A stretch of 64,000 nt of DNA, taken from sequence record OK018184; one strand, given 5' to 3'. Numbering within the stretch: position 1 is the stretch's first letter; each line of letters begins with the position of its first letter. Shown one piece after another: positions 21,283-62,719 of this stretch. The stretch is from Shigella phage CT01. Position numbers and translations under genes: made by a program. The notes under the pieces were generated by a model. It was not told where the DNA came from. It saw only the letters and a list, made by a program, of their open reading frames with translations, and ran no database searches.

Positions 21283-22214
21283 TAGAATGCTCCTTGAAAA
21301 ATATTATCACCACTAGTAGGTCTATTATACAAATACTCTATGCCACCAGGTTTAATATAGTTCCATGTCTGAAACGGATGTGTCTGATATGGATGATATA
21401 GATGATTATTAGGTCTATTATACAAATACTCTATGCCACCAGGTTTAATATAGTTCCATGTCTGAAACGGATGTGTCTGATATGGATGATATAGATGATT
21501 ATAAGGATTTAATCCAGGCGTTCTCCAGGTAGTGTTCCAAGGAAAAGAATCGTTTTTAACCATCTTCTCAATTAAATCTTTTATAGCTTTTTCACTATCA
21601 AAACTTTCTTTATTTTCCTTCGGCGAAAAAAGCTTATTTTCTACATCATTCCATGTATAAACTCGCTGCGCAGTTTTTGGAATATTGTCACGCTCTCCTC
21701 GAGCCATCCAATAAACAGGAACATTTAATATTTCACTCGCATGATCGCAGTGATGAGCGAGATCGTCAATATAACAAATTACGTTATATTTCTCTTTTGC
21801 CTTTTTGAACAGCTCTTCTTTTGAAGAATCATGACCACACATCATTACTTCCGAGAAAGCACCAGGAAAAAGAGCATTCAAATTAAATTGACGATTCAAC
21901 AGAGCGTCAATAGAATCACCCAATGCTGTAACAGCTACAAAATTATAATCTTCTTTTAATTTGTTAATTACACACAGGGCATCTTTATACGGAGACAAGT
22001 AACGAATAAAATCTGAACGATTGTATTTTTCAATTAACTTGACGCCAAGTTCTTCGTCACAATTAAAGAGTTTACCCGGAGAAATAAATTTCTCATCTTG
22101 GATCATTTTTAAAATATGTTCTAATGGAAGATTATATTTCTGAGCAAAATAAGGAAGGCCTGATTGCCAGCTTAAACATACTCCATCAATATCAGTTAAA
22201 ATAGTTGGCTTCAT
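21282..22214 (-). CDS. HAD-like hydrolase-family protein (30.2 position) with in-frame 31-aa C-terminal duplication
   Basis: N-terminal DIDGV (DxDG) HAD motif; C-terminus repeats NHLYHPYQTHPFQTWNYIKPGGIEYLYNRP twice. Confidence 0.6.
   Translation of the reverse strand: MKPTILTDIDGVCLSWQSGLPYFAQKYNLPLEHILKMIQDEKFISPGKLFNCDEELGVKLIEKYNRSDFIRYLSPYKDALCVINKLKEDYNFVAVTALGDSIDALLNRQFNLNALFPGAFSEVMMCGHDSSKEELFKKAKEKYNVICYIDDLAHHCDHASEILNVPVYWMARGERDNIPKTAQRVYTWNDVENKLFSPKENKESFDSEKAIKDLIEKMVKNDSFPWNTTWRTPGLNPYNHLYHPYQTHPFQTWNYIKPGGIEYLYNRPNNHLYHPYQTHPFQTWNYIKPGGIEYLYNRPTSGDNIFQGAF
21317..21502. repeat. perfect 93-bp tandem duplication (2 copies) inside the 30.2 ORF
   Basis: 21317-21409 is identical to 21410-21502. 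Confidence 0.9.
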
Positions 22215-24485: not shown

Positions 24486-24660
24486 TGCCTGCGCAAGCCC
24501 TCAAGGGGAACATAGGTTTTTGAATATTTAACGACCAGGATAACCATAAACCCGTCATCATACCTTATAGCTCTTATCTGTTGTACACCGTTAGCTTAAA
24601 GGTTCCGGGTTCGATTTCTCGAGGATAAGATATATACTAAGGCAGTGAATCTCCAATAAA

Positions 24661-27143: not shown

Positions 27144-27664
27144 GTTGATCCTAGCTCCTTACTTTCAACGTTTTTAACTAATTTGACAGAAACTAATTCA
27201 GCATCTTGGGTAATCATTACCGGGCCTTCTTCATACTCTTCAAGATATTCTAGAGCTTTCTTTTTAGCTTCTTCCTTCGTATCAGTTTGAGCATAGATAT
27301 AAAACATACAACCAGTAATACCTACTACTTTCCACTTAATTTCTTTATCAGTTTTAATTTCAAATTTACTGATAGAGTCATCTTTTTGAACTTCTTCGAA
27401 AAAATAATATTCTGACATATAAGTAATTGAAAATAGCGGGCTATCTTTATAAGATTCGCCCATTACATCAACAGCTTTATACCAGCAATCGTCAATTTCG
27501 CGTTTAATGCTAATAACATTTTTCGCAGGATCTATTTTTACTTTAAATGAATTTTCCCCAATAAACTGAGCAATTCGTTTATTAGCCCCGCAAGTTTCAT
27601 TAAAAATATCTTTATATCCAGCTTTAAAGCGATAAACCTTATCTTCTTCAAACCATTCGCTCAT
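27137..27664 (-). CDS. hypothetical protein
   Basis: 175-aa ORF. Confidence 0.5.
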   Translation of the reverse strand: MSEWFEEDKVYRFKAGYKDIFNETCGANKRIAQFIGENSFKVKIDPAKNVISIKREIDDCWYKAVDVMGESYKDSPLFSITYMSEYYFFEEVQKDDSISKFEIKTDKEIKWKVVGITGCMFYIYAQTDTKEEAKKKALEYLEEYEEGPVMITQDAELVSVKLVKNVESKELGSTC

Positions 27665-32665: not shown

Positions 32666-33817
32666 TTAAAAGTATTTTTTAAAACTCATCATAACTTTAT
32701 CATCAACATCATTATCAATCTGTGCAACAAGGTAAGATGACAGTTCTACTTCTTGTGGCGCGGATTGAACATTATCAGAATTAAGGTATTCACGAATCCA
32801 AGGATATGGATGTTTAACCGGAGCATCGGTAATTGGGCATGGAAGACCGCACTGTTTCATACGAGATACAGTTAAGTAATCAATAAAGCTCCACATGCTA
32901 TTTGTATTTAATCCAGGAACATCGCCATCTTTAAATAAATGAACTGCCCAATCTTTTTCTTGGCGGTTAACTTCCATGAAAATATTAACTGCTTCTTGTT
33001 CACACTCTTGAGCAATTTTAACCCATTCGCCGCCATCAGTACCGGATTGAAGTTGACGAATAATATATTGGGTGCCTTTAAGGTGAAGCTGCTCATCACG
33101 TGCAATGAACTTCATAATCTTGGCATTACCTTCCATGATTTCCATGTTCTTATGGAAGTTAAAGGTACATGCAAAAGATACATAAAAACGAATAGCTTCT
33201 AAGGCATTAATAACGTGCAAACAGAGGTAAAGAGATTTCATTAGTGCTCGTTTAGCTTCGGCTTCTTGTTTAATAGCTCGATTTAAACGAAAAACAGCAT
33301 CAGGAGATTCTTTAGCTAGTTCTGTAAATTCTTTAGCATTTTCCCATTCACGGGTTTTAGTCAGAACATCATCATAATAGCGACCGATAGATTCAGCACG
33401 TTTCATGATAGCTTCATCTAGTACAATCTCATCAAATACCTTCGATGGATCAGTATAAAGATTTCGCATGATATGGGTATATGAACGGCTATGAATAGTT
33501 TCACTAAAAGTCCATGTAGCAACCCATGTATCAAGACTTGGGTCTGAAATTAATGACATAAGTACTGCAGACGGTGCACGACCCTGAATGCTATCTAGAA
33601 GTGATTGATACTTCAGGTTGTTAGTAAAAATATCTTGCTGATACTGAGGAAGCTTGTTAAATTGTGCAGCATCCATCATTAAGTTTACTTCTTCAGGACG
33701 CCAGAAAAATGACAACTGCTTTTCGGTTAAATCTTCAAAAACTTTATGACGTTGAATATCATAACGCGCAATACCAAGACCTGAACCGAAGAACATAGGT
33801 TCTTTTAAAACATTCAA
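32666..33817 (-). CDS. nrdB: ribonucleotide reductase small subunit NrdB, intron-less
   Basis: 383 aa continuous ORF with the di-iron ligand region; no intron or I-TevIII ORF. Confidence 0.9.
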   Translation of the reverse strand: MNVLKEPMFFGSGLGIARYDIQRHKVFEDLTEKQLSFFWRPEEVNLMMDAAQFNKLPQYQQDIFTNNLKYQSLLDSIQGRAPSAVLMSLISDPSLDTWVATWTFSETIHSRSYTHIMRNLYTDPSKVFDEIVLDEAIMKRAESIGRYYDDVLTKTREWENAKEFTELAKESPDAVFRLNRAIKQEAEAKRALMKSLYLCLHVINALEAIRFYVSFACTFNFHKNMEIMEGNAKIMKFIARDEQLHLKGTQYIIRQLQSGTDGGEWVKIAQECEQEAVNIFMEVNRQEKDWAVHLFKDGDVPGLNTNSMWSFIDYLTVSRMKQCGLPCPITDAPVKHPYPWIREYLNSDNVQSAPQEVELSSYLVAQIDNDVDDKVMMSFKKYF

Positions 33818-33947
33818 CTAAATTTTCCTTATCATCAGAACCTCCCATACATCTAGGGATTATATGATGTGTCTCTTTATATTCTGATAAAGATTCCCGA
33901 GCCTGAGCTCGGGAAATTAGGTCATTATAGATTTTTTGATAATTCAT
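33759..33947 (-). pseudogene. mobE: truncated HNH homing-endonuclease remnant (mobE-like)
   Basis: 62-aa ORF with HNH motif ETHHIIPRCMGGSDDKENLV that runs into the nrdB start; lies in the nrdA-nrdB gap where T4 has mobE. Confidence 0.5.
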
Positions 33948-34729: not shown

Positions 34730-34877
34730 ATCTTGATAGTCTAACAGGTTATCAAGTGCACGTACTTGAACTTCTGCTAATTCATTAATTTTATCTTGGT
34801 CTTGCCAATCGAAGTTATCCAACACAAATGCAGATAACGTGCACAATCCAATTTCAGCATCAGGACTATTCACATCA
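34730..34877. repeat. 148-bp direct repeat of nrdA sequence, left copy flanking the insert
   Basis: Identical to 35737-35884; encodes DVNSPDAEIGLCTLSAFVLDNFDWQDQDKINELAEVQVRALDNLLDYQD. Confidence 0.9.
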
Positions 34878-35736
34878 GTTCGACGCGTTGTTCTTGAAGA
34901 CGGATCACATACTTGGACTGCTAAACAAGATTTTAATGGCGCAGTTAACTTTAACTCTACTGTTAACCTTAATAACACTACCACATTTAAAACAGAAGTT
35001 AAATTCCGCTCGTTGAATGCATTCCGTATGTATGGCGGAAAATTTGGTACATTTTTACGTAATGATGGAGAGAGTCTTTATATTCTTTCCACCGACGAAG
35101 ATGATCAAGATGGAAACTTTAATACAAATAGACCTTTCCGTTATGAATTAAGAACTGGTGATGTTACTTTGGGTGGTGTTAGTGGTGCTAACGTTTTAAA
35201 ATTAAAACGTGATTCTCTCACCGCATTTTTTGGCGGTGATATTAACATGAAAGGCACGATGACTTTTGACGCCGGACGTTTAGGGTCACGAGATTATTTT
35301 AAATTTAACCATTGGGGTGATAGCAATAACGCTCGTGATAACATCATCCAGTTAGAAGATAGTCAAGGCGCTCATTTTTCCACTGAACGTACTTTAGCGA
35401 CTGGTGCAATTAAAACTCGTTTCTTTGGCGAAACATTCACTGATGGTACATTATACCTAAATCAGATGAATAATAGCTCTGAACGATTCCATATCAATAA
35501 TTGGGGAAATTCAGAAGTTGGTCGCGCGGCAGTGATGGAAGTCGGTGATTCCAAAGGTTATCACTTCTATACGGAACGCAGGACAGATAACAGTTTGACA
35601 TTTGATGTTGCTGGCACTTTTACCGTGCATGGACCTACCGGGATCACTATCAAAAACTCTGTTGGTGCTCGCCACATCTGGTTTAAAGATGATAGCGATG
35701 CAGAAAAGGCTGACAGTTTAATTACCTTCCGCAGTG
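34878..35736 (+). other. inserted segment derived from long tail fibre gene 37 (835 bp of gene 37 sequence plus 24-bp filler)
   Basis: 34876-35712 matches the gene 37 copy at 52582-53074 and also contains the 344 bp absent from that copy; 35713-35736 has no match in the window. Confidence 0.85.
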
Positions 35737-35884
35737 ATCTTGATAGTCTAACAGGTTATCAAGTGCACGTACTTGAACTTCTGCTAATTCATTAATTTTA
35801 TCTTGGTCTTGCCAATCGAAGTTATCCAACACAAATGCAGATAACGTGCACAATCCAATTTCAGCATCAGGACTATTCACATCA
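35737..35884. repeat. 148-bp direct repeat of nrdA sequence, right copy
   Basis: Identical to 34730-34877. Confidence 0.9.
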
Positions 35885-37208
35885 TTTGTTGGAATAGCAA
35901 TTTCACAACACAAGTTACTCTGGCGAATAGGCGCCTTTTCACGAATAAACGGAGTATAGTTATTCGTATTATCAATGAACTGCACATAAATCCTTGCTGT
36001 TCCTGATCGTTCAGTCATGAGTAATTCAAATAGTTCACGGGCTTTAATACGCTTTTTGCGAATATTAGGGTCTTTTTCTGCTGCTTCGTATAATTCGCAG
36101 AAACGGTCTTGGTCTTTAAAATAAGAATAATAAAGCTCACCACCCATTTCATGCGGACTGAACAAAGTAATGTAATCGTTCTTTCCAAAACGTTCCATCA
36201 TCAAATCATTCAACTGGACGCCATAATCCATATGACGGATACGGTTTTCTTCTACACCTTTGTTATTTTTCAAAACGAGAAGATTTTCAACTTCCAAATG
36301 CCAAATAGGATAATAAGCAGTAGCAGCGCCGCCACGAATTCCGCCCTGTGAACATGATTTAACAGCAGTCTGAAAATGTTTCCAAAAAGGAATAACACCA
36401 GTATGGCGTACTTCACCTGTGCCAATCTTAGAACCTTCGGCACGAATCATACCAACGTTAATACCGATTCCAGCTCGTTTTGAAATATACTCAACAATTG
36501 AAGCAGAAGCCTTATTGATAGACTTCAGCGAATCGCCTGCCTCAATAACAACGCATGAACTAAATTGCCGAGTCGGAGTACGACATCCAGCCATAATAGG
36601 AGTAGGCAGTGAAATCTGTCGAGTAGATACTGCTTCATAAAAACGAATAACATGTTTTAATCTATCAACAGGTTCATCTTGATGTAATGCCATTCCAATA
36701 GTCATAAATGCAAACTGAGGAGTTTCATAAATTTGACCAGTGGTTTTATCTTTAACGAGATATTTTTCTTTTAATTGCATCGCCCCGGAATAAGTAAATT
36801 CCATATCCCGCTCATGCTTAATTTTTGATTCTAAAAATGTAATTTCTTCTGCTGAATATTTTGACAACAATTCAGGGTCGTATTTACCTTCATTTACACA
36901 GTAAGAAATATGGTCAATAAATGAACGTGGTTCATATTGCCCGTAAACATGCTTACGAAGAGCAAACATTAAACACCGTGCAGCTACGTATTGATAATCA
37001 GGCTCTTCAACTGAAATAGAATTCGCAGCAGCCTTAATTACAATGGTTTGAATGTCATCAGTGGTCATTCCATCACGGAGATATGATTTAATATTTTCAT
37101 ATAATTCATAAGGATCTACAGATGTTCCTTCAGCTGCCCAAGATAAAACTTTAATAATTTTTTGCGGGTCAAAGCTTTGAGAAACACCACTACTTTTGAT
37201 AACATTAA

Positions 37209-37535
37209 TTAATTGCATAAGTCCTCAACTTGAAAATCGTCTTTAAACAATCGGTTAACTATATGAGCTATTATATCACCATGACACGGCTTTGGTTTAC
37301 ATGTGCATCCTAGCCTCATTCCACGTAAAGGCTCTAAATGTGCTTTAGTTATTTCTCCGGATTTAATTCGACGTATAAAATCTTTTTTGAATAATTCAAT
37401 GGCAGCCTCCCGGCTGCCAGCATCTTTACCGACGTAATTTCCCCAAAATGTACCACGGTGAATATTAACATCAAAGTCGGATTTATATTTATTCACTACT
37501 TGGCATAGACGGCCCGCGCGGTGATAATTTGTCAT
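37209..37535 (-). CDS. hypothetical Cys-rich protein at the nrdA.1 position
   Basis: 108-aa ORF upstream of nrdA. Confidence 0.55.
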
Positions 37536-40244: not shown

Positions 40245-40709
40245 TCACAATTTTCCAATCAGCTTTAAACTGTTCAACGTCAGAATGATAAATCCAGAAT
40301 CCTGCGCTTTCTCCATCCTCATAAAGAGGGCATCCATCGCATTCATCTTCCCATCCCATATCACGTAAAAGATGTTCGGCTTTTTCAACGAGATCAGAAT
40401 CTTTACCGATGATATTAAAATACCATTTACCTCTAACTTCTGAATCTTTTCTTTAGTAGCCTTTTCCATACTTCTGAACTTAACCAATAGAGGATAGGTA
40501 TCGACACCCATAACTAAACTGGTTACAAGACTGTGTTCACCCACAAGCCATAACGAATACGTTTGAATATCGAGTCCGTAATTTCTGTCTTTATGGACCC
40601 GTACACCCATCACTTCAAATTTCTCACTAGCTTTTTCTACCGCATCCAGGAAATCATCTTTAGTCATATTAGGCCTTAAAAGTTTTTCGCAAAAGTTCAA
40701 TGATTTCAT
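40245..40709 (-). CDS. hypothetical protein (frd.3-like position); true start probably the internal Met
   Basis: 154-aa ORF overlapping the upstream gene by 41 bp. Confidence 0.45.
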   Translation of the reverse strand: MKSLNFCEKLLRPNMTKDDFLDAVEKASEKFEVMGVRVHKDRNYGLDIQTYSLWLVGEHSLVTSLVMGVDTYPLLVKFRSMEKATKEKIQKLEVNGILISSVKILISLKKPNIFYVIWDGKMNAMDALFMRMEKAQDSGFIILTLNSLKLIGKL

Positions 40710-41472: not shown

Positions 41473-42381
41473 TTAAAGGTCATTCAAAAGGTCATCCAGA
41501 TCCGTGTCATCAGCACTAGATGAACTGCCAGAGCTTGAGCTCATAAAATCATCTTCAGTTTTTGTTTTGAAGTCATCAACATTGAATGCATCCAAATCAT
41601 CAGCAACTTTATCAGCTTTCTTAGCGGCAGTTGCTGCGGCACCGCCCATAGCAGCAGTTCCCATAACTTGACTGAACTTAGTGCTCAGTTCTTCAAACGA
41701 TTTGAATTTATCTTTAGAAGTCATTTCAGAAAGGTCAACCATTTGTTCGAACAGTTCTTTCTGGAAAGATTCATCATCAATGTTTGGAATCGCAGATTGA
41801 TTCAGGAATTTAGATTCATCGTAGTTACTAAAACCAGAAACTTGTTTAACTTTCAGTACAAAGTTAGCACCTTCCCACGGACAAGTTACATCAACCGGAG
41901 TTTCACCCATTTCAACATCAACTGCAATCATTGCATTGATTTTATCCCAGATTTTCTTACCAAAACGGTATTTAAATACTTTACCTTCATTTTCTGGAGC
42001 AGCTGGGTCTTTTACTACAAGAATGTTAGCCCAGTAAGAAGTTTTACGTTTAACAAGACCGTACTCTTTATTGTCAGTGTTATACAAATCATTTTTACTG
42101 ATGTACTGACATACTGGACAAGAATCGTAATCACCGTGGGTAGATGAACAGTTTTCAATATACCATTTACCATTTTTCTTGAAACCGTGATTTACAAGAA
42201 TTGCGAATGGTGCTTGTTCATCATTTTTAGACGGAAGAAAACGAATTACTGCTTGACCGTTACCCGCATTATCGAGTTTCAGTTTCCACTCGCCTTTATC
42301 TTCAGAAGAAAAACTACCTTTATTTCCAGCCAGTTTAGCCATTTGTGCAGCGAGTTCAGCAGTAGATTTACGTTTAAACAT
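41473..42381 (-). CDS. 32: single-stranded DNA-binding protein gp32
   Basis: 302 aa; [17 protein letters not shown]..., acidic C-terminus [12 protein letters not shown]; matches recalled T4 gp32. Confidence 0.9.
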
Positions 42382-42628
42382 TTTTATTTCCTTTTTAATT
42401 TAATTAACAGTTGGTGCTATGACGATGTATGACCTCATAGCTGGTCAGTGAGATAATTATAATCTATTTATAATAAGCAATTAATACTTACAAGATTTCA
42501 CAGTTTCAATGAAAACACTTTTGGCTTTCTGTGAATCAATATTTAAAATTTTTCTATAAGCCTTTAACTTTATAGAATAATTATTCCAGACTAAATTATC
42601 AGTCTGTTCATCATGTTTATCAATTATA
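42091..42628. repeat. 538-bp direct repeat, copy 1 (gene 32 5' end, its leader, and the gene 59 3' end)
   Basis: Identical to 42692-43229 (offset 601 bp). Confidence 0.9.
42481..42628 (-). pseudogene. duplicated 3' fragment of gene 59 (last 48 codons)
   Basis: Encodes [48 protein letters not shown], identical to the gp59 C-terminus. Confidence 0.7.
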
Positions 42629-42691
42629 ATTCGAACTGATCTGTGTTTGTGCATTTGGGCATATGTTTGCGCGCGTAAAGCAGGCTGGTCG
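42629..42691. other. 63-bp unique spacer between the two 538-bp repeat copies
   Basis: No match found elsewhere in the window by eye. Confidence 0.6.
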
Positions 42692-42982
42692 ATTTTTACT
42701 GATGTACTGACATACTGGACAAGAATCGTAATCACCGTGGGTAGATGAACAGTTTTCAATATACCATTTACCATTTTTCTTGAAACCGTGATTTACAAGA
42801 ATTGCGAATGGTGCTTGTTCATCATTTTTAGACGGAAGAAAACGAATTACTGCTTGACCGTTACCCGCATTATCGAGTTTCAGTTTCCACTCGCCTTTAT
42901 CTTCAGAAGAAAAACTACCTTTATTTCCAGCCAGTTTAGCCATTTGTGCAGCGAGTTCAGCAGTAGATTTACGTTTAAACAT
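42692..42982 (-). pseudogene. duplicated 5' fragment of gene 32 (first 97 codons) fused to junction sequence
   Basis: Track ORF 42620..42982 begins with the gp32 N-terminus and then diverges into spacer-encoded residues. Confidence 0.7.
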
Positions 42983-43229
42983 TTTTATTTCCTTTTTAAT
43001 TTAATTAACAGTTGGTGCTATGACGATGTATGACCTCATAGCTGGTCAGTGAGATAATTATAATCTATTTATAATAAGCAATTAATACTTACAAGATTTC
43101 ACAGTTTCAATGAAAACACTTTTGGCTTTCTGTGAATCAATATTTAAAATTTTTCTATAAGCCTTTAACTTTATAGAATAATTATTCCAGACTAAATTAT
43201 CAGTCTGTTCATCATGTTTATCAATTATA
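42692..43229. repeat. 538-bp direct repeat, copy 2
   Basis: Identical to 42091-42628. Confidence 0.9.
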
Positions 43230-43735
43230 TTTAAAAACGAATCAAGCAAGATAAACGTCTCAAACGAAATTATATTCGATTGAAGTAGTTTAAAAATATA
43301 ACTTGATTGAACTTTTGGATTATACTCAAAGATTTCTTTAAAAGCAGAAACTTCAACTTTTTTACTAAAATAGTAAATATTGCGAATATCTTCTTCAAAC
43401 TTAAATTTAATTTGCTTTAAGCGTCCGATATATTCACGATAAAACACAAGTGCATCAGCGTCAGAGATGTCACCAATCCAAGCATCTTGGTTAGCAACAA
43501 GATTGCTTATAAAGATTAAAGCAAGTTCCTTTAATTTATATTTTTCTGATAACTTCTGGAAAAAATACTTATCCCTTCGCTTTTGATAAGCGGCATCAGA
43601 CACCCGCATGCACCAATTATACTTAATTACATCATACTTTCCATTCATATGTTGTTTTATCATTAAGTATAATTTATAAACTGATTTACCATCAATATAT
43701 CTTTCACCACCAGCAGGCATGCGGAGTTTAATCAT
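43082..43735 (-). CDS. 59: helicase loader gp59
   Basis: 217 aa, MIKLRMPAGGERYIDGKSVYKLY... matches recalled T4 gp59. Confidence 0.85.
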   Translation of the reverse strand: MIKLRMPAGGERYIDGKSVYKLYLMIKQHMNGKYDVIKYNWCMRVSDAAYQKRRDKYFFQKLSEKYKLKELALIFISNLVANQDAWIGDISDADALVFYREYIGRLKQIKFKFEEDIRNIYYFSKKVEVSAFKEIFEYNPKVQSSYIFKLLQSNIISFETFILLDSFLNIIDKHDEQTDNLVWNNYSIKLKAYRKILNIDSQKAKSVFIETVKSCKY

Positions 43736-50403: not shown

Positions 50404-51096
50404 ATGGCTGATTTAAAAGTAGGTTCAACTGTGGGTGGATCTGTCATTTGGCATCAAGGAAATTTTCCATTGAATTCAGCCGGTGACGATGTACTCTACA
50501 AATCATTTAAAATATATTCAGAATATAATAAACCGCAGGCAGCTGATAACGATTTCGTTTCTAAAGCTAATGGTGGTACTTACACCGGTCCAATTACTAT
50601 TAATTACGGGGTAAATAGTTATCTTCAATTAAGTAATAATGAAACCCCTATCCGAATTCGTTCTGGTGGCGGCACCGGTAATACTCTTGTAATTGGTGGA
50701 TCTTCTGGTGGTATTAGTTTTAGACCTGCAGGTAGTGAAATCACTACTGGACAAATTAGTTTTAGACCTGCAGGTAGTGAAATCACTACTGGACAAATTA
50801 CTATTACGCCAGAAGGTTTGACAACATTCACCAAAGCTGTAAAGGCTCCATCTGTAACTGTTACATCTACTCCTTCCGCAGCATCAGATGCTACTCGTAA
50901 AGATTATGTTGATGGAGCAATAAATACTGTTACAGCAAATGCAAACTCTAGAGTGTTACGATCTGGTGACACCATGACAGGAAATTTAACTGCGCCAAAC
51001 CTTTTTTCACAGAATCCTGCATCTCAACCTTCACACGTTCCACGATTTGACCAAATCGTAATTAAGGATTCTGTTCAAGATTTCGGCTATTATTAA
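50404..51096 (+). CDS. 36: long tail fibre distal connector gp36 (with internal 14-aa tandem duplication)
   Basis: 230 aa; N- and C-terminal regions match recalled T4 gp36; [14 protein letters not shown] occurs twice. Confidence 0.8.
50713..50796. repeat. perfect 42-bp tandem duplication (2 copies) inside gene 36
   Basis: attagttttagacctgcaggtagtgaaatcactactggacaa repeated back to back. Confidence 0.9.
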
Positions 51097-51104: not shown

Positions 51105-53835
51105 ATGGCTACTTTAAAACAAATACAATTTAAAAGAAGCAAAACCGCAGGTCAACTTCCTGCTGCTTCAGTATTAGCCGAAGGTGAATTGGCTATTAAT
51201 TTAAAAGATAAAACAATTTTCACAAAAGATGACTCAGGCAATGTTATAGAATTAGGTTTAAAATATGGAGGAACAATTGATGGTTCTTTAACTGTTAATG
51301 GAAATATAATTGGAAATTTAACAGGTAACGCTGCAACTGCAACGAAATTAAAAACAGCACGAAAAATTAATGGTATATCCTTTGATGGGTCAAAAGATAT
51401 CACGCTAACTCCATCCGACATAAATGTCAATAGCACAACGTTTATAAAAAATAACGGCGAATTACCTGTTGATGCTAATTTAGATACGTATGGGCCTGTT
51501 GAAGAATATCTTGGAGTTTGGTCGAAAGCAACTTCAACCAACGCTCAACCAGCAAATAAATTTCCAGAAAACAATGCTGTAGGTGTGCTAGAAGTATTTG
51601 TGGCCGGTCAATTTGCTGGTACTCAGAGATATACAACTAGATACGGAAATGTTTATATTCGTTCCTTGACTGCTACATGGAACGGAGTAAATGGTCCGTG
51701 GAGTGTGTGGCGAAATATTCAATCCGGTACTCGTTCACTGTCAACAACAATTGATCTTAATGATCTAGGAGGTGCTGAACATCTTGGTTTGTGGCGAAAT
51801 AGTTCAAATTCCATTGCTACCTTTGACAGAAATTTCCCAGAAGAGGGGTCGTCAGCTCAAGGTCTTTTGGAAGTATATGAAGGTGGAAACTATTCTCGTA
51901 CACAAAGATATACAACCAGATTTGGTGTTGTTTATACTCGCTGTCTTACTGCTGCGTGGGATGCTTCTGCGCCTAAATGGGGACCGTGGCAACAAGTCGG
52001 TAATGTCACACCGGCGACTTTCTATGACGGAAACCTGAATGATTTTAAAACTCCTGGGTTATATAATATTTTAGGCACTGATGCCGTTATTAATTGTCCT
52101 ACAGGCGAAGGTTTACCAGCCGTTATTGTTGGTTTGCTGGAAGTTAAACAGCGTGCTTCTGGCGGTGCTATTTTCCAAAAATTTACTACTGCCGGAACAG
52201 GTGCAACTACCCGCGATCGTATTTTTGAGCGCGCATATACCGGCGGTGTGTGGGGTGAATGGAACGAAGTATACACATCTTATTCTCTACCAATTACTTT
52301 GGGTATGGGCGGTATTAAATCTAACTTAGCAGAGTTAGACTGGCAAGCATTTGATTTTGTTCCTGGTAGTATGTTTAGCGTTCCTTTGAACAAAATAAAG
52401 AACATGCCAGCTAATATGGATTGGGGTACGATTGACGGAAACTTAATTATGTTTTCTGTTGGTCCTAGCGAGCACACCAGCACAGGACGTACTGTTCAGG
52501 TTTGGCGTGGAACTGTATCCCAGACAAACTATCGTTATTTTGTCGTTCGTGTATTCGGTAATCCAGGGAGTAGAACATGTACAGTTCGACGCGTTGTTCT
52601 TGAAGACGGATCACATACTTGGACTGCTAAACAAGATTTTAATGGCGCAGTTAACTTTAACTCTACTGTTAACCTTAATAACACTACCACATTTAAAACA
52701 GAAGTTAAATTCCGCTCGTTGAATGCAAGGCGCTCATTTTTCCACTGAACGTACTTTAGCGACTGGTGCAATTAAAACTCGTTTCTTTGGCGAAACATTC
52801 ACTGATGGTACATTATACCTAAATCAGATGAATAATAGCTCTGAACGATTCCATATCAATAATTGGGGAAATTCAGAAGTTGGTCGCGCGGCAGTGATGG
52901 AAGTCGGTGATTCCAAAGGTTATCACTTCTATACGGAACGCAGGACAGATAACAGTTTGACATTTGATGTTGCTGGCACTTTTACCGTGCATGGACCTAC
53001 CGGGATCACTATCAAAAACTCTGTTGGTGCTCGCCACATCTGGTTTAAAGATGATAGCGATGCAGAAAAGGCTGTTATCTGGGCTACAGATGAGGGTATT
53101 TTACATATTCGCAATAATCATGAGGGTTCATTTAGTCATCACTTCCAGGGTGCAATGATTAAACTGGAAGGGCGTGTTCCTTATGGTGCAGCAAAAGGGC
53201 TTATTCGAGGCGAGATAGACGGTGGTGCATATGTTGCATGGAGAGACCGCCCTGCTGGTTTGTTGGTTGACTGCCAGAAAAGTATTGACAGTGCTCATGC
53301 TGTTTGGAAAGCGGTTGATTGGGGGCGTCAATATATCGCTGCTATGGACGTTCATTGTCCGGGTGATGGTAATAATACTGCGGCAGCGGTTCTTCATGTT
53401 CAGGCTGCTGATTATCAATTCCATGCAAGCGGAGAATTTCATGCCACTGGTAACGGGAACTTTAACGATGTGTATATTCGTTCCGATGGTCGTCTGAAAA
53501 TTAATGTTGAAGATTATACAGGAAATGCGTTAAGTTTGATCGGCAAACTGAAAGTGAAAACTTACGATAAAGTTAAATCTCTTAAAGACCGTGAAATTAT
53601 CGGTCACGAGATCGGCATTATCGCACAGGATTTACAAGAAATATTACCGGAAGCTGTAAAATCTTCAAAGGTTGGCAATCTTGATAATCCAGACGATGTT
53701 CTGACAATTTCTAACTCTGCTGTGAATGCTCTTTTAATTAAGGCTATTCAGGAAATGAGTAAAGAAATTAAAGAATTGAAAACTCCTTTCTTTACTAAAA
53801 TTGCTCGCAAAATTAGTAAATATTTTAAATTCTAA
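51105..53835 (+). pseudogene. 37: long tail fibre distal subunit gene 37, broken by a 344-bp frameshifting deletion at 52727/52728
   Basis: Two overlapping ORFs in different frames (51105..52748 and 52723..53835); the missing 344 bp is present in the copy inside nrdA at 35022-35365. Confidence 0.8.
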
Positions 53836-53841
53836 CAACAA

Positions 53842-53858
53842 GGGGCATTGCCCCCTTT
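53842..53858 (+). terminator. hairpin ggggc-att-gcccc after gene 37
   Basis: Inverted repeat directly after the stop codon. Confidence 0.4.
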
Positions 53859-53870
53859 GGAGTATAAATT

Positions 53871-54653
53871 ATGGCAGTAGTTGGTGTTCCTGGTTGGATT
53901 GGAAGTTCAGCCGCAAATGAAACAGGGCAACGATGGATGAGTCAAGCGGCTGGTCAACTAAGATTGGGTGTTCCTTGCTGGATGAGTCAATTTTCAGGTC
54001 GCTCGCGAGAAATTATTCATACACTTGGTGCAGACCATAACTTCAATGGTCAGTGGTTCCGTGATAGATGCTTTGAGGCAGGTAGTACACCTATAGTGTT
54101 TAATATTACAGGTGATTTAGTATCATATTCTAAAGATGTTCCTTTATTCTTTATGTACGGAGATACACCGAATGAATATGTTCAGTTGAATATACATGGC
54201 GTAACGATGTATGGTCGTGGCGGGAATGGCGGTAGCAATAGTCCTGGATCAGCTGGGGGTCATTGTATTCAAAATGATATTGGTGGGAGACTAAGAATTA
54301 ATAATGGCGGAGCTATTGCTGGCGGTGGCGGTGGCGGTGGCGGCGGATATTATTCTCCTTTTTCACAAATGAGATTGACCTTTGGCGGTGGCGGCGGTCG
54401 TCCGTTTGGCGCTCCGGGCGGATCTATTGATATGCAATCAGGAGCAACTGCTGGTACTATTTCTGCACCAGGCTCAGGGTCTGTGAACGGTATCTATAGC
54501 GGCGGGTCTGGTGGTGAAGTTGGATCCGCAGGGGGTAGATGTAATATTCGTGGTCAAGGATATGAATACGATGGCGGAGCTGCTGGTTATGCCGTCATAG
54601 GGTCTACGCCGACATGGCAAAACGTTGGAGCAATATATGGTCCAAGAGTATAA
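53871..54653 (+). CDS. 38: T2-type gp38 receptor-binding adhesin with glycine-rich motifs
   Basis: 260 aa with several poly-Gly runs ([25 protein letters not shown]) between variable segments; too long for a T4-type gp38 chaperone. Confidence 0.75.
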
Positions 54654-54685
54654 TTTTTGAATAAATATCCTTAAAAGGAGGGTCT

Positions 54686-55342
54686 ATGGCAGCACCTAGA
54701 ATATCATTTTCGCCCTCTGATATTCTGTTGGGTGTTCTAGATCGCTTGTTCAAAGATAACGCTACCGGGAATGTTCTTGCTTCCCGGGTAGCTGTCGTAA
54801 TTCTTTTATTTATGATGGCGATTGTTTGGTATAGGGGAGATAGTTTCTTTGAGTACTATAAGCAATCAAAGTATGAAACATACAGTGAAATTATTGAAAA
54901 GGAAAGAAATGCACGCTTTGAATCTGTCGCCCTGGAACAACTCCAGATAGTTCATATATCATCTGAGGCAGACTTTAGTGCGGTGTATTCTTTCCGCCCT
55001 AAAAACTTAAACTATTTTGTTGATATTATAGCATATGAAGGAAAATTACCTTCAACAATAAGTGAAAAATCACTTGGAGGATATCCTGTTGATAAAACTA
55101 TGGATGAATATACAGTTCATTTAAATGGACGTCATTATTATTCCAATTCAAAATTTGCTTTTTTACCAACTAAAAAGCCTACTCCCGAAATAAACTACAT
55201 GTACAGTTGTCCATATTTTAATTTGGATAATATCTATGCTGGAACAATAACCATGTACTGGTATAGAAATGATCATATAAGTAATGACCGCCTTGAATCA
55301 ATATGTGCTCAGGCGGCCAGAATATTAGGAAGGGCTAAATAA
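54686..55342 (+). CDS. t: holin
   Basis: 218 aa, MAAPRISFSPSDILLGVLDRLF... with one N-terminal transmembrane helix; matches recalled T4 holin. Confidence 0.9.
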   Translation: MAAPRISFSPSDILLGVLDRLFKDNATGNVLASRVAVVILLFMMAIVWYRGDSFFEYYKQSKYETYSEIIEKERNARFESVALEQLQIVHISSEADFSAVYSFRPKNLNYFVDIIAYEGKLPSTISEKSLGGYPVDKTMDEYTVHLNGRHYYSNSKFAFLPTKKPTPEINYMYSCPYFNLDNIYAGTITMYWYRNDHISNDRLESICAQAARILGRAK

Positions 55343-55615
55343 TTATTTGTTTGTATACATCTCTAGATATCGATATACACCCTCAAAACCCTCGTTGAAT
55401 TCGTCGATGAGGGTTTTCTTATCTTCTTGAGTTAATTCAGAAACAATTTTACGGAATGAATTCTGATTTAACTTTCTACCTTCATGCGTTACTCCAATCT
55501 CATTCAGAAATGCAATAAAATTAGCACGATTCTCAACAATATCTTCTCTGGAAAATTTAATCAAAATAGACGCAACAGTAATAATTTCACGAACTGTATC
55601 AATATTTTTATTCAT
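55343..55615 (-). CDS. asiA: anti-sigma70 factor AsiA
   Basis: 90 aa, MNKNIDTVREIITVASILIKFSREDIVENRANFIAFLNEIG matches recalled T4 AsiA. Confidence 0.9.
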   Translation of the reverse strand: MNKNIDTVREIITVASILIKFSREDIVENRANFIAFLNEIGVTHEGRKLNQNSFRKIVSELTQEDKKTLIDEFNEGFEGVYRYLEMYTNK

Positions 55616-55776
55616 TAACTATACCACTCAATTAGTTGACTTTATTATAATATCATCAGACGCTTTATTTGTAAACTGGTCTGTGTTATTTTCTTCAAAA
55701 ATTTTTTCTACGAATTCTTTGAACGACTCACGTTCCTGAGCTACATTATGCTCGATTACCTTTTCAAGATTATGAC

Positions 55777-56055
55777 TCATTCGAAATAATCTTCAATTTC
55801 GTAATCATGGACATAAATCATTATAGTTTTTAATACATCATCAATACTTTTTCCTGGAGCTGGAATTACGTAAAAATATCCCTCCTTTGAGTTATCTTTA
55901 TAAGTTCCAATCAAGAAATCATTATTCTCGCGATGTAGTTCTTCAACTAATTCATTAACAATTGAGTGGTATAAATTTGGTAGAAGCTTATATAGCTTTT
56001 CTAGAATATCAATTTTGATTGTATATTGAACCACAGATTGAGAATCAATAATCAT
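55777..56055 (-). CDS. arn: anti-restriction (McrBC inhibitor) Arn-like protein
   Basis: 92 aa, acidic, adjacent to asiA as in T4. Confidence 0.65.
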   Translation of the reverse strand: MIIDSQSVVQYTIKIDILEKLYKLLPNLYHSIVNELVEELHRENNDFLIGTYKDNSKEGYFYVIPAPGKSIDDVLKTIMIYVHDYEIEDYFE

Positions 56056-56138
56056 AGACCTTCCCCTTATGTTTCTGTTTGCGATTAGATTCTTTAAACG
56101 CTTTCTTCTTATCTTTATGGACAGAAGCTTTATTAAAA

Positions 56139-56357
56139 TTATGTTTTGCGACTAAATTGTTCATAGTGCTGAATTACCTCTCTTAAACATTTGCATGTGA
56201 ATGAAAACTTTTTAGCTACACCACATTCAAATATATGTTCTCTTAAATCACGTGTGTCAGTATATCCCATCTCAACAATAAAATGCCGTATTAGATTTTT
56301 ATCTTTATCATTGAGAGAGTTAAAATAATCGGATTTTGAATTAATTTCCCTGGCCAA
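56139..56357 (-). CDS. hypothetical protein
   Basis: 72-aa ORF. Confidence 0.45.
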   Translation of the reverse strand: MAREINSKSDYFNSLNDKDKNLIRHFIVEMGYTDTRDLREHIFECGVAKKFSFTCKCLREVIQHYEQFSRKT

Positions 56358-56637
56358 ATTGAATCACCTTCAGTTGACGTTTTAGTTCTTTTATCATTTC
56401 TTCGTTCATCGCAATATAAAGATCGCGTAAAGCAGGTTTTAACATTCCATTTACTGGAGAACTAAATGGACATACATAATCTTTTCCTACGAGCTTTTTA
56501 GTGAATTCCATATTACAGAACTGAAATGCCGGTTCATTGGCATAAATTCCCCAATTATTTGACATCATTTTATTGGCATATTCTAATGCCTGGATTTGAT
56601 TAGTAATTCCGTCAATTTGAAACTTTTTAATATTCAT
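56341..56637 (-). CDS. hypothetical protein
   Basis: 98-aa ORF. Confidence 0.45.
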   Translation of the reverse strand: MNIKKFQIDGITNQIQALEYANKMMSNNWGIYANEPAFQFCNMEFTKKLVGKDYVCPFSSPVNGMLKPALRDLYIAMNEEMIKELKRQLKVIQFGQGN

Positions 56638-57098
56638 TAGTAAAGGTCCTCAGAGTAAAGTTCTTTTTCACTACCACCGCGTTCAATACGTACTTGTCCA
56701 GCGTAAGTTGCAATAATCATTGCTTCTTCACGTGTCCAGTAATTGCTATACTGGTCAATAAACCCTTGGTCATCATCACAAACTTGCTGAGTAACTAATT
56801 GAGGTTTAACTATATCTAAAACTGTTGCCATATCTTTAGAATAATGACGAACGCCTGGAATAACAAGAGTTCGTCCATCTTTTAATTTAAAACGGTTGGC
56901 TGCGCAAACAATCCGTCGTTGGTACTTTTGGTTTTCATCCCAGTATGCAGACTGCCAACAGATTTCAGGAACTTCTGCAAGAATATCTTCTTCTGTACAT
57001 TTATAACCATGTGCTTTAAATTTTTGAACAAGACTTTCTGGAGTCTCACGAGATAAAGGAACATTCAGCATTTTTAAACGATTAATAAATGGATTCAT
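56637..57098 (-). CDS. hypothetical protein
   Basis: 153-aa ORF. Confidence 0.5.
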
Positions 57099-57439
57099 TT
57101 AAACCATCCTTTAATACGCTGCCACAAAGTTTTCTGTTGAGCTTTGTTAACACCAATTGAGCGAATAACTGGTTGAGATTCCTGGAATTCTTTATAATCA
57201 GCAAGGTAAATTTCGTAAGCTGAATCTGTAAAGGAACTTATCGCTGCCATGAAGTTTTTACGTACACCACCAGGAGCTACTCCGTTAGGTAATTCAGAAT
57301 TTTCACGAATAATTAAATATAACCCAGCTCTAACCTTAACAATAGTTCCAAGATAAGCTCCATGGTACCAGATATCCCACCCCTCTTGAGTGGGTTCTGC
57401 ACAACGACGAAGTTCATTGATAATTTCTAACTTGTTCAT
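57095..57439 (-). CDS. hypothetical protein
   Basis: 114-aa ORF. Confidence 0.5.
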
Positions 57440-57449
57440 TATTTATTCC

Positions 57450-58085: not shown

Positions 58086-58126
58086 TTTCTAATCTCCGTA
58101 ATTCTGTATCAGTAGTTGATAGTTGT

Positions 58127-58156
58127 ATAGTACCACAGTATGCTTTGGTTGTAAAC
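58127..58156 (-). promoter_or_regulatory. conserved early promoter block upstream of motA (-35 GTTTAC, 17-bp spacer, -10 TACTAT)
   Basis: Minus-strand ttttcacaaaacGGTTTACaaccaaagcatactgtggTACTATacaactatc. Confidence 0.5.
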
Positions 58157-58185
58157 CGTTTTGTGAAAAAATTTTAAAATAAAAA

Positions 58186-58205: not shown

Positions 58206-58210
58206 TAAAA

Positions 58211-60524: not shown

Positions 60525-60583
60525 GTTATTTTCCTCTAATTATTTTCTACTCCAAGGCCGCATGAATACACACGGCCGATAAA

Positions 60584-61820: not shown

Positions 61821-62378
61821 TTAAATGGAAAGATACCATCCGTTGTAGTTGCTTTTTCTTACAACCTTACGAAGGTCTTCTCTATCACCGACGAACTTCG
61901 GAGTGTACTGGATGACACCTGGATGAATTTCTTTAGTGTTGAATATAATTATACAGTCAGCGACTTGATGATTCAGAATGGGCCCTAGATTTATTCCAGA
62001 ACCGTATGGATACTCTCCGCTGCATCCGGTTGTTACAGAAATCCAACGTGAGTCAGTTTGGTGTGTCTTAACTTCTACGCGAATCCCGCAGTATCTTGGA
62101 TGCGCCAATACATCCCATGCGTATGTATACGGGTCATTAACATCCTCTTGGCCTTTGTTAACATACCCGCTTAGCCAATCTGCTACAAAAAACTCTGCGT
62201 ACACCGCGATACGGCATCTTTCGATAACTTCTGCTTTATCCTGATTTGGATTTTGTTTTAAAGAGTATCTTGCTGTATCAGCAATTTTGACCTTCATTTC
62301 ACTAGTCAAGTCACTGTTCGATAGGGTAAATGTCGGAATCTGAAATAGTCTCTGTAAACCCGGATTCGTTTTCTGCAT
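61821..62378 (-). CDS. denB: endonuclease IV (DenB)-like protein
   Basis: 185 aa, T4 denB length and position between ndd and rIIB; identity by synteny and length only. Confidence 0.6.
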   Translation of the reverse strand: MQKTNPGLQRLFQIPTFTLSNSDLTSEMKVKIADTARYSLKQNPNQDKAEVIERCRIAVYAEFFVADWLSGYVNKGQEDVNDPYTYAWDVLAHPRYCGIRVEVKTHQTDSRWISVTTGCSGEYPYGSGINLGPILNHQVADCIIIFNTKEIHPGVIQYTPKFVGDREDLRKVVRKSNYNGWYLSI

Positions 62379-62719
62379 TAAACTTTCCTTTTACGTCGGA
62401 ATCACTGATATTCATACAATAAATCATAACTTCCCTTAAAACAAAAGGGCCGAAGCCCCTTATTTTATTTGAATTGTGCAATTCTTTTCTCTATCTTGCT
62501 GTATCAGCAATTTTGACCTTCATTTCACTAGTCAAGTCACTGTTCGATAGGGTAAATGTCGGAATCTGAAATAGTCTCTGTAAACCCGGATTCGTTTTCT
62601 GCATTAAACTTTCCTTTTACGTCGGAATCACTGATATTCATACAATAAATCATAACTTCCCTTAAAACAAAAGGGCCGAAGCCCCTTATTTTATTTGAAT
62701 TGTGCAATTCTTTTCTCTA
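62266..62719. repeat. perfect 226-bp tandem duplication (2 copies) spanning the denB 5' end, its upstream region with terminator, and the 3' end of the 64-aa gene
   Basis: 62266-62491 is identical to 62492-62717; boundaries ambiguous by 2 bp. Confidence 0.9.
62446..62468 (-). terminator. hairpin gggc-cgaa-gccc plus T-run; further copies at 62672-62694 and 62903-62925
   Basis: aaaagggccgaagccccttattttatttgaattg occurs three times. Confidence 0.5.

What the first reader, a model, noticed from the sequence alone, without database searches (positions are those of the whole stretch)
35713..35736. Junction filler sequences of unknown origin at two rearrangement borders
Both complex rearrangements carry short stretches matching neither flank: 24 bp (35713-35736, acagtttaattaccttccgcagtg) between the gene 37 homology and the right nrdA repeat, and 63 bp (42629-42691) between the two 538-bp repeats at the 32/59 junction. 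Filler DNA is typical of non-homologous or microhomology-mediated end joining and of template switching. Its source (elsewhere in the phage, the host, or de novo) could indicate the mechanism.
Basis: seen in the sequence. Interest (0 to 1): 0.4.

Follow-up and report, generated by a model that had tools for sequence, protein, structure and literature searches.

The report
Filler DNA at phage rearrangement joints
Two short stretches of unmatched DNA sit exactly at the joints of two recent rearrangements in a T4-like phage genome; they look like repair scars rather than working elements, and about 40 bases of one were copied from the bacterial host's mdtD gene.

Summary
A 24-nt stretch (35713-35736) separates an 837-bp gene 37 fragment from the right copy of a 148-bp nrdA duplication. 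A 63-nt stretch (42629-42691) separates two identical 538-bp copies of the gene 59/32 junction. Neither resembles its flanks, the rest of the window, the complete genome of the closest relative (Shigella phage SF2-1), 50,697 phage records or PLSDB plasmids.

One source was found. Positions 27-52 of the 63-mer are an exact 26-mer of E. coli/Shigella mdtD, and 36 of 40 bases match over positions 21-60. This stretch is in 5417 of 5426 E. coli genomes, and about 1e-7 such matches are expected by chance. The 24-mer and the remaining 23 nt of the 63-mer stay untraceable.

The fillers belong to a cluster of rearrangements absent from every relative that could be checked, with 0-6 nt of microhomology at their joints. 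One of them is a lethal 344-bp frameshift deletion in the resident gene 37.

Best reading: these are non-functional junction insertions from microhomology-mediated, replication-based illegitimate repair, including one switch onto host DNA. This is a known kind of scar. An assembly or library artefact, or a defective genome, cannot be excluded without reads. Interest is low to moderate.

The parts
34730..34877 (-). Left copy of the 148-bp nrdA segment duplicated around the insertion. Its last 2 nt (CA) are shared with the start of the gene 37 fragment.
   Evidence: Self-BLAST: 34730-34877 = 35737-35884 at 100%. Junction alignment. nrdA identified from the SF2-1 annotation.
34876..35712 (+). 837-bp fragment of gene 37 (distal long tail fibre subunit, residues about 492-771), inserted antisense into nrdA. 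It contains the 344 bp (35022-35365) that are missing from the resident gene 37.
   Evidence: 100% identity over 837 bp to SF2-1 96650-95814. Prefix of 146 nt and suffix of 349 nt match the resident copy. tblastn.
35713..35736 (.). 24-nt filler ACAGTTTAATTACCTTCCGCAGTG, source unknown. It supplies the last codons and the stop of the truncated NrdA ORF (35722-37218, minus strand).
   Evidence: No match beyond chance in the window or SF2-1, E. coli genomes, phages, plasmids, IMG/VR or metagenomes.
35737..35884 (-). Right copy of the duplicated nrdA segment. nrdA continues upstream to its start codon at 37218.
42091..42628 (-). Copy 1 of the 538-bp tandem duplication: gene 32 codons 1-97 (42091-42381), the 59-32 intergenic region, and the last 148 nt of gene 59 (42481-42628). 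It belongs to the intact gene 32 (41473-42381).
   Evidence: Self-BLAST at 100%. ORFs. SF2-1 annotation.
42629..42691 (.). 63-nt filler. On the minus strand it adds 23 codons and a stop to a gp32(1-97) fragment (ORF 42620-42982).
   Evidence: No whole-length match in GTDB genomes or IMG/VR.
42649..42688 (-). Host-derived patch inside the 63-nt filler: 36/40 identity to E. coli mdtD. The core 42655-42680 is an exact 26-mer. The mdtD coding strand corresponds to the window minus strand.
   Evidence: BLAST against 5,426 E. coli genomes gave hits in 5,417, E=2e-5. Alignment. In GTDB the 26-mer occurs only in E. coli/Shigella-type genomes. Chance estimates.
42692..43229 (-). Copy 2 of the 538-bp tandem duplication. 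It belongs to the intact gene 59 (43082-43735).
52726..52728 (+). Junction of a 344-bp frameshift deletion in the resident gene 37 (CA microhomology). It splits gp37 into ORFs 51105-52748 and 52723-53835. It is context for the nrdA insertion, which spans the deleted segment.
   Evidence: Every phage record listed aligns across this site in two pieces.
33812..33819 (-). Junction of a 621-bp deletion running from mobE codon 46 to nrdB codon 10 (AGTTGA microhomology). It lies 1.06 kb from the nrdA insertion and about 95 nt from the position equivalent to the mapped MobE nick site.
   Evidence: Every phage record listed aligns across it in two pieces. The nick site at nrdB nt 122-126 is from PMC2790892.
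63934..64000 (.). rIIA is interrupted after 63933. A single unmatched G (63934) follows, then an inverted copy of 27248-27313 that runs off the window. This is a third junction carrying a filler, here of 1 nt.
62266..62719 (.). Perfect 226-bp tandem duplication (rIIB-denB interval) with a 2-nt TA microhomology and no filler.

Best explanation
The two fillers are non-functional junction insertions. They were left when a T4-like phage genome was rebuilt by illegitimate, microhomology-primed, replication-based repair, of the kind described as template switching during break-induced or recombination-dependent replication (MMBIR/FoSTeS).

Proposed course of events:
- A broken or stalled 3' end in nrdA primed on a 2-nt match in gene 37 and copied 837 nt.
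- It dissociated, acquired 24 nt from a template that cannot be traced, and re-primed in nrdA 148 nt behind the break. That produced the flanking duplication.
- A second event re-primed 538 nt behind the break at the gene 59/32 junction, after copying about 40 nt of host chromosomal DNA (mdtD) and about 23 nt of unknown origin.

Shown: the anatomy, the absence of a phage source, the host identity of the 40-nt patch, and the microhomology at sister junctions.

Inferred: the order of steps, the polymerase-copying nature of the filler as opposed to ligation, and the trigger. The trigger could be breaks made near these loci by homing endonucleases of co-infecting relatives, since SegG targets gene 32 and MobE nicks nrdB.
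For: 1. Both fillers lie exactly at joins flanked by perfect duplications (148 bp and 538 bp, no mismatches). These are copy-number gains, which a replicative mechanism produces directly.
2. The filler-free junctions in the same window have 2, 2, 2 and 6 nt of microhomology. Four of the five junctions have at least 2 nt, with P about 0.003-0.02 under random joining.
3. Part of the 63-nt filler is templated. A 26-nt exact match extends to 36/40 with E. coli/Shigella mdtD. The expected number of chance 26-mer hits is 8e-8 per host genome and 1e-2 across the whole 596-Gb GTDB collection. The 14 flanking nt are 10/14 identical (P = 3e-4).
4. The four mismatches sit at the edges of the patch and occur in none of the 5,426 E. 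coli genomes. This is as expected for low-fidelity, low-processivity synthesis. BIR has about 1000-fold higher mutation rates and switches template often at its start (PMC3678771).
5. Illegitimate double-strand-break repair with microhomology and extensive resection is documented in T4 (PMC2988022).
6. Both events lie next to known homing-endonuclease targets. segG inserts at 59/32 and cuts gene 32; mobE inserts at nrdA/nrdB and nicks nrdB. This phage lacks segG and carries a truncated mobE.
Against: - No template was found for the 24-mer or for 23 nt of the 63-mer. Most of the filler is therefore not demonstrably templated.
- Microhomology at the filler edges cannot be assessed without those templates.
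- The genome as written has a lethal gene 37 frameshift. It also has an unusually high ratio of structural changes absent from all relatives checked to point differences. Both are odd for a propagating phage.
- No stable hairpins were found at the breakpoints that could explain fork stalling.
- The homing-endonuclease trigger is circumstantial: the nrdA insertion is about 1.15 kb from the MobE nick position, and I could not obtain the exact SegG cleavage coordinate.
Confidence: 0.5

Rival explanations
1. The joins were made by end joining with fragment capture. Two broken phage molecules, which are abundant as concatemers in the infected cell, were ligated by T4 ligase or by the host's RecBCD/LigA alternative end-joining route. 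Short pieces of degraded DNA, including a host mdtD fragment released by phage nucleases, were trapped between the ends. Joining breaks at different positions on two genome copies would also give the duplications.
For: - A host-derived patch lies inside the filler.
- Microhomology at the joins is only 0-2 nt, and the rIIA junction has a 1-nt filler.
- From general knowledge: T4-type phages fragment host DNA early in infection, and E. coli alternative end joining is reported to use little or no homology.
Against: - A ligated host fragment should be an exact copy. Here 4 of the 14 edge positions differ from all 5,426 E. coli genomes.
- The remaining filler has no host match of about 18 nt or more.
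- Several independent breaks and multi-fragment ligations would be needed per event.
Confidence: 0.2
2. The junctions are not features of a propagating phage lineage. They could be an assembly or library artefact (chimeric molecules, in-vitro template switching). They could be the consensus of a defective subpopulation kept alive by complementation at high multiplicity. Or the sequence could be altered or non-natural.
For: - The resident gene 37, which is essential, is frameshifted by a 344-bp deletion.
- At least six rearrangements have no counterpart in SF2-1, and three of them lie in the 11 kb (52726-63933) that differs from SF2-1 by only 2 mismatches.
- The three junctions that could be tested against INPHARED (the nrdA insert, the gene 37 deletion and the mobE-nrdB deletion) are absent from every listed phage record. 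The two junction ORFs are absent from the protein and contig collection.
- In-vitro polymerase template switching also leaves microhomology.
Against: - Apart from gene 37, every change spares essential functions. Intact copies of genes 32 and 59 are retained. The disrupted genes nrdA, nrdB, mobE and rIIA are dispensable in the laboratory (general knowledge). The small gp36 repeat is in frame.
- Base-level quality is high, at 99.8-100% identity to SF2-1 over many kilobases.
- Library chimeras normally join long fragments. They do not insert 24-63 nt, and they do not carry a mutated 40-nt host patch.
- Microhomology is enriched over random joining.
- The deleted gene 37 segment is preserved with 146- and 347-nt homology arms, so viable recombinants could arise.
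Confidence: 0.25
3. The fillers are deliberate or accidental laboratory sequence, such as cloning scars, barcodes, primer tails or adapters left by phage engineering or sequencing.
For: 24 nt is a common barcode or primer length. nrdA is a dispensable locus that could serve as an insertion site.
Against: - PLSDB plasmids gave no match apart from mislabelled E. coli chromosomes carrying mdtD.
- From memory only, the fillers do not resemble the common Illumina or Nanopore adapter or barcode sequences. This was not tested with a tool.
- The inserted payload is a promoter-less antisense gene fragment.
- The junctions show microhomology rather than designed homology arms or restriction sites.
Confidence: 0.03

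Closest known systems
Templated or untraceable insertions at breakpoints of replication-based complex rearrangements (FoSTeS/MMBIR; Hastings et al. 2009, PMC2621351; reviewed in PMC3678771)
   Same: Both show duplications with short inserted sequence at the join point, 0-6 nt of microhomology, several rearrangements clustered in one genome, insertion of a distant segment (gene 37 into nrdA) with a return behind the break, and an error-prone copied patch.
   Different: This case is in a virulent phage and one template is host DNA. Most of the filler could not be assigned to any template, whereas MMBIR insertions are usually traceable to nearby sequence.
Illegitimate double-strand-break repair in phage T4 (one-sided intron homing events; summarised in Edgell et al. 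2010, PMC2988022, section 5)
   Same: The phage family is the same. Junctions lie at microhomologies after extensive resection. Breaks are made by homing endonucleases, and both filler-bearing events lie at loci targeted by SegG (gene 32) and MobE (nrdB).
   Different: The summary I read does not mention fillers or host-derived inserts. No endonuclease cut is demonstrated here, and the nrdA insertion is about 1.15 kb from the MobE nick position.
Filler DNA and capture of ectopic chromosomal sequence at end-joining junctions in eukaryotes (e.g. PMC5087911, listed)
   Same: Short inserts match neither flank, and some derive from elsewhere in the cell's DNA.
   Different: Those events depend on the Ku/Lig4 or Pol-theta machinery, which is absent from E. 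coli and T4-type phages (general knowledge). Here the joins are tied to duplications.
Short-homology tandem duplications and amplifications in T4 (e.g. the segmental amplification in evolved T4, eLife 2022, PMC9391042, listed; and Hp17-type amplifications, from my own recollection)
   Same: Recent perfect tandem duplications arise in a T-even genome at very short homologies.
   Different: As far as I know those duplications are selected for gene dosage and join directly. Here no complete gene is amplified and the join carries a 63-nt insert.

Membership tests
MMBIR/FoSTeS-type junction insertion | The inserted sequence is templated, i.e. copied from an identifiable sequence elsewhere. | tested here: inconclusive
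   About 40 of 63 nt trace to host mdtD. The 24-mer and the other 23 nt of the 63-mer have no detectable template in the window, SF2-1, phages, E. coli or plasmids.
MMBIR/FoSTeS-type junction insertion | Microhomology is present at the switch points. | tested here: met
   The filler-free junctions have CA (nrdA to gene 37), CA (gene 37 deletion), TA (226-bp duplication) and AGTTGA (mobE-nrdB deletion). This is enriched over chance, P about 0.003-0.02. It cannot be assessed at the filler edges themselves.
MMBIR/FoSTeS-type junction insertion | Copy-number gain and complexity: duplications, an insertion of distant sequence, and clustered events. | tested here: met
   There are a 148-bp flanking duplication, a 538-bp tandem duplication, an 837-bp dispersed copy, and further duplications and deletions in the same 64 kb.
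Classical NHEJ filler DNA (Ku/LigD or Ku/Lig4) | The end-joining machinery is present in the cell where the event occurred. | not tested
   General knowledge only: E. coli/Shigella and T4-type phages lack Ku and LigD. I did not scan the window for such genes beyond comparing it with the SF2-1 annotation, which lists none.
Transposable-element insertion with target-site duplication | A short fixed-length target duplication, terminal inverted repeats and a transposase or passenger element. | tested here: not met
   The duplication is 148 bp. The insert is an internal gene 37 fragment plus 24 nt, with no terminal inverted repeats and no transposase ORF.
Homing-endonuclease-driven gene conversion | An endonuclease gene, or donor-derived homologous sequence, is acquired at the repaired site. 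| tested here: not met
   There is no segG in the 59-32 spacer and mobE is truncated. The inserted DNA is non-homologous. Endonuclease cutting may be the trigger, but the outcome is not homing.
Locally templated (snap-back or nearby-copy) insertion | The filler matches, directly or in reverse complement, sequence within a few hundred bases of a breakpoint. | tested here: not met
   The longest local words are 9 nt for the 24-mer and 8 nt for the 63-mer. Local-alignment scores do not exceed those of shuffles.
   Side-by-side comparison with the gene 37, nrdA, gene 32 and gene 59 continuations shows no similarity.

The most novel reading that the evidence does not exclude
All the rearrangements of this window that are absent from SF2-1 and from the other relatives checked are the footprint of one burst of serial template switching during recombination-dependent replication in a single infected cell, comparable to chromoanasynthesis. 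These are the nrdA insertion with its filler, the gene 37 deletion lying inside the copied segment, the mobE-nrdB deletion, the 59/32 duplication with its host-derived filler, and the rII-region events. The burst included a switch onto host chromosomal DNA. If so, this would be a sequence-level record of how a strictly virulent phage copies host DNA into its genome without homology. A side consequence is that a broken tail-fibre gene could be restored from an ectopic patch.
Probability: 0.15. Interest if true: 0.55.

Novelty: new member of a known kind. Interest (0 to 1): 0.3.

Why it matters
The fillers do no work themselves, so their value is forensic. A traceable host-derived patch inside a phage rearrangement joint is direct evidence that host DNA can serve as a template or substrate during illegitimate repair in a virulent T4-type phage. 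That is one proposed route by which lytic phages pick up foreign sequence.

The location of both events beside homing-endonuclease target loci suggests a testable link between endonuclease attack in mixed infections and structural mutation.

There is also a practical warning. This genome record carries a frameshifted essential tail-fibre gene and many rearrangements not seen in its relatives. It should be checked against reads before it is used as a reference.

Tried and rejected
- **Filler as mis-read adjacent sequence.** Rejected.
- **Filler copied from nearby sequence on either strand.** Exact words and local alignments are no better than shuffles (one search timed out).
- **Filler from elsewhere in the phage.** The window and the complete SF2-1 genome give only 10-13-mers. 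Nothing was found in 50,697 phage records except two contaminated Campylobacter phage records that carry E. coli-like mdtD.
- **Plasmid or vector origin.** PLSDB gave nothing but mislabelled E. coli chromosomes.
- **24-mer in E. coli genomes.** Only a 24/28 chance hit at E=10.
- **Whole 63-mer in GTDB genomes and IMG/VR.** No hits.
- **24-mer and the 5' part of the 63-mer in IMG/VR and JGI metagenomes.** No hits. These exact-match negatives carry little weight, because an ordinary nrdA 40-mer of this phage also found nothing in IMG/VR. The same caveat applies to the junction scans.
- **A better-matching mdtD in another species.** The 26-mer occurs only in E. coli/Shigella-type genomes, and none matches the filler edges.
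- **Other parts of the filler from the mdtD neighbourhood.** Words of at most 10 nt only.
- **Identifying the source record through junction ORFs.** Not on record.
- **A functional reading.** There is no Rfam family; the only match is a fly lncRNA far below threshold. No promoter or terminator signal exceeds shuffles.
- **Hairpins at the breakpoints as stalling sites.** z-scores range from -1.6 to +0.9.
- **Literature for a described phage with these rearrangements.** None found (one search failed on a short term). The SegG paper with the exact cleavage coordinate is not held.
- **Sequencing adapters or barcodes.** Compared from memory only, with no resemblance. This was not tested with a tool.

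Full report
**What the window is.** The window is a T4-type phage (Tequatrovirus). Its + strand is collinear with the minus strand of Shigella phage SF2-1 (PQ571308.1), at 98.5-100% identity over most of its length. Some mosaic segments are closer to other T4-like phages. Gene names used here come from the SF2-1 annotation and from T4 nomenclature.

**Check of the observation.** Self-BLAST of the window and direct reading reproduce the report exactly.
- Two 538-bp copies, 42091-42628 and 42692-43229, are 100% identical and separated by 63 nt (42629-42691).
- A gene 37 segment ends at 35712 and the right nrdA repeat starts at 35737, separated by 24 nt (35713-35736).

Placed beside the wild-type continuation of every flank, neither filler shows any similarity. 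Two refinements follow. The gene 37 segment is a single contiguous 837-bp piece, 100% identical to SF2-1 gene 37. The nrdA duplication is 148 bp, of which the last 2 nt (CA) are shared with the gene 37 piece.

**Anatomy of the two events.**
- *The nrdA event.* In nrdA, which is on the minus strand, the structure is: nrdA 3' part, 148-bp segment, antisense gene 37 fragment, 24-nt filler, the same 148-bp segment, nrdA 5' part. NrdA is truncated to 498 aa, with the filler supplying its last codons and its stop.
- *The 59/32 event.* The duplicated unit holds the last 148 nt of gene 59, the intergenic spacer and the first 97 codons of gene 32. Intact copies of both essential genes remain: gp59 of 217 aa and gp32 of 302 aa. 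The join creates only a gp32(1-97)+23 aa ORF.
- *Function.* No RNA family, promoter or terminator signal is associated with the filler.

**Where the fillers come from.**
- *Not from the phage.* The window and the whole SF2-1 genome share only 10-13-mers with them. Words and local alignments within the surrounding kilobases are no better than for shuffled fillers. BLAST at E up to 10 against 50,697 phage records finds nothing for the 24-mer. For the 63-mer it finds only two 'UNVERIFIED' Campylobacter phage records whose ends carry E. coli-like DNA.
- *Not from plasmids.* PLSDB gives only mislabelled E. coli chromosomes.
- *Partly from the host.* The 63-mer hits 5,417 of 5,426 complete E. coli genomes at one place, the mdtD gene. 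The match is 36/40 identical over filler positions 21-60 (E=2e-5), with an exact 26-mer at positions 27-52, i.e. window 42655-42680.
- *Specificity of that match.* In one genome per species of GTDB, the 26-mer occurs only in E. coli/Shigella-type genomes, and none matches the filler any better at its edges.
- *Chance estimates.* Expected chance 26-mer hits are about 8e-8 for one host genome and 1e-2 even for all 596 Gb. The 14 nt flanking the exact core are 10/14 identical (P about 3e-4). Roughly 40 nt of the filler therefore derive from the host's mdtD, with four changes clustered at the edges that no sequenced E. coli carries.
- *What remains unassigned.* Positions 1-20 and 61-63 of the 63-mer and the entire 24-mer remain without a source. 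E. coli genomes give only a 24/28 chance hit for the 24-mer. The mdtD neighbourhood gives words of at most 10 nt.
- *Limits of the exact-match scans.* Scans of IMG/VR and JGI metagenomes were negative. These are weak evidence, because a control 40-mer from ordinary nrdA sequence also found nothing in IMG/VR.

**Context: a cluster of illegitimate rearrangements not seen in relatives.** Alignment to SF2-1 and junction dissection show further events.
- A 344-bp deletion in the resident gene 37 with CA microhomology. It is not 342 bp, so it shifts the frame and splits gp37 into 547-aa and 370-aa ORFs. The deleted bases survive only inside the nrdA insert, flanked there by 146 and 347 nt of homology.
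- A 621-bp deletion from mobE codon 46 to nrdB codon 10 with AGTTGA microhomology.
- A perfect 226-bp tandem duplication with TA microhomology.
- An rIIA truncation joined, through a single unmatched G, to an inverted copy of 27248-27313 at the window's end.

Every phage record listed by the INPHARED searches aligns across the nrdA insert, the gene 37 deletion and the mobE-nrdB deletion in two pieces, so none of them shares these three junctions. The 226-bp duplication and the rIIA junction were compared only with SF2-1. The duplicated copies are free of mismatches, so all these events are recent. Four of the five filler-free or 1-nt-filler junctions have at least 2 nt of microhomology, more than random joining would give (P about 0.003-0.02). 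If the two events were independent, the chance that the gene 37 deletion falls inside the copied 837 bp is about 0.003. They are probably linked, mechanistically or by selection.

**Most likely mechanism.** T4-type phages replicate largely by recombination-dependent replication, the phage counterpart of break-induced replication (PMC3678771). According to that review, BIR is prone to repeated dissociation and re-invasion at its start and has mutation rates about 1000-fold higher than normal replication. Its microhomology-primed variant, MMBIR, yields duplications, insertions of distant sequence and short insertions at join points (PMC2621351, listed). T4 is also known to repair endonuclease-made breaks illegitimately at microhomologies after long resection (PMC2988022).

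The anatomy here fits that scheme.
- A 3' end in nrdA primes on CA in gene 37 and copies 837 nt.
- It leaves, picks up 24 nt, and re-primes 148 nt behind the break.
- At 59/32, an end copies about 40 nt of host mdtD with errors at the patch edges, plus unassigned sequence, and re-primes 538 nt behind the break.

The anatomy and the host match are shown. The copying (rather than ligation), the order of steps and the trigger are inferred.

A possible trigger is cutting by homing endonucleases of co-infecting relatives. segG sits in the 59/32 spacer of T4 and targets gene 32. mobE sits between nrdA and nrdB and nicks nrdB at nt 122-126. This phage has no segG and only a mobE stump. The mobE-nrdB deletion ends about 95 nt from the equivalent nick position, and the nrdA insertion lies about 1.15 kb from it. 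No stable hairpins mark the breakpoints.

**Rival explanations.**
- *End joining with capture of DNA fragments*, by T4 ligase or by host alternative end joining. This explains a host insert and minimal microhomology. It predicts an exact host copy, which is not what is seen.
- *An artefact or a non-propagating genome.* This must be taken seriously. Gene 37 is essential and is broken. Three rearrangements lie in 11 kb that differ from SF2-1 by only 2 bases. The junction ORFs are in no public collection. Against it, all other changes spare essential genes, base quality is high, microhomology is enriched, and library chimeras do not normally insert 24-63 nt carrying a mutated host patch. A defective genome maintained by complementation, or rescued by recombination with the nrdA-borne patch, would reconcile both views.
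- *Engineering scars or adapters.* This is unlikely: PLSDB gave no match, and from memory only the fillers do not resemble common adapters.

**Comparison with what is known, and verdict.** This works like junction insertions of replication-based complex rearrangements, and like the illegitimate break repair already described for T4. It is not classical NHEJ, a transposon insertion, a homing product or a locally templated insertion; the membership table gives the tests. The only new element is the identifiable host-derived patch in a virulent phage's rearrangement joint, together with the density of events. The fillers themselves are ordinary mutational scars with no function. I rate the finding as a new member of a known kind, interest about 0.3. 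The record needs read-level validation before any mechanistic weight is put on it.

Noticed in passing
window 52726-52728 (with 35022-35365): The resident gene 37 carries a 344-bp frameshift deletion, which should be lethal for the long tail fibre. The missing segment exists only inside the nrdA insertion, flanked by 146- and 347-nt homology arms. The junction also creates an ATG in frame with the C-terminal part.
   Followed up: partly
window 33812-33819: A 621-bp deletion fuses mobE codon 46 to nrdB codon 10 (AGTTGA microhomology). It removes the nuclease's C-terminal part and the nrdB start codon. Every phage record listed by the INPHARED search aligns across it in two pieces.
   Followed up: yes
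window 62266-62719: A perfect 226-bp tandem duplication in the rIIB-denB interval with a 2-nt TA microhomology and no filler.
   Followed up: partly
window 63933-64000 and 27248-27313: rIIA is interrupted and joined, through one unmatched G, to an inverted copy of a segment 36 kb away. The copy runs off the end of the window, so its extent is unknown.
   Followed up: partly
window 21314-21506: A 93-bp tandem repeat with two mismatches between copies. It is older than the other duplications. SF2-1 has fewer copies.
   Followed up: no
window 50713-50800: An extra 42-bp in-frame repeat unit in the gp36 gene (ORF 50404-51096 is 230 aa, against 216 aa in SF2-1).
   Followed up: no
window 24184, 41359, 55634, 58114, 61249, 61761: A family of about 65-nt intergenic repeats (…ATAGTACCACAG…TGTAAAC…TTTGTGAAAAA…). 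They look like T4-type early-promoter cassettes and are possible recombination hot spots.
   Followed up: no
window 24636-24638, 40443-40449, 61737-61746: Three further deletions relative to SF2-1 (about 179, 118 and 203 bp) with 3-10 nt of overlap at the joins. I could not establish whether these are specific to this genome or natural alleles. Exact-match scans of IMG/VR were uninformative because the positive control failed.
   Followed up: partly
L007 (MG065686.1 170651-174576) and MG065691.1: The 'UNVERIFIED' Campylobacter phage A18a and A11a records carry E. coli mdtD-like sequence near a record end. This is probably contamination or misassembly of those records.
   Followed up: no
L008 and L012 (CP169086.1, CP170191.1): Two GTDB records titled Enterobacter hormaechei have an mdtD stretch identical to that of E. 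coli. This may be mislabelling.
   Followed up: no
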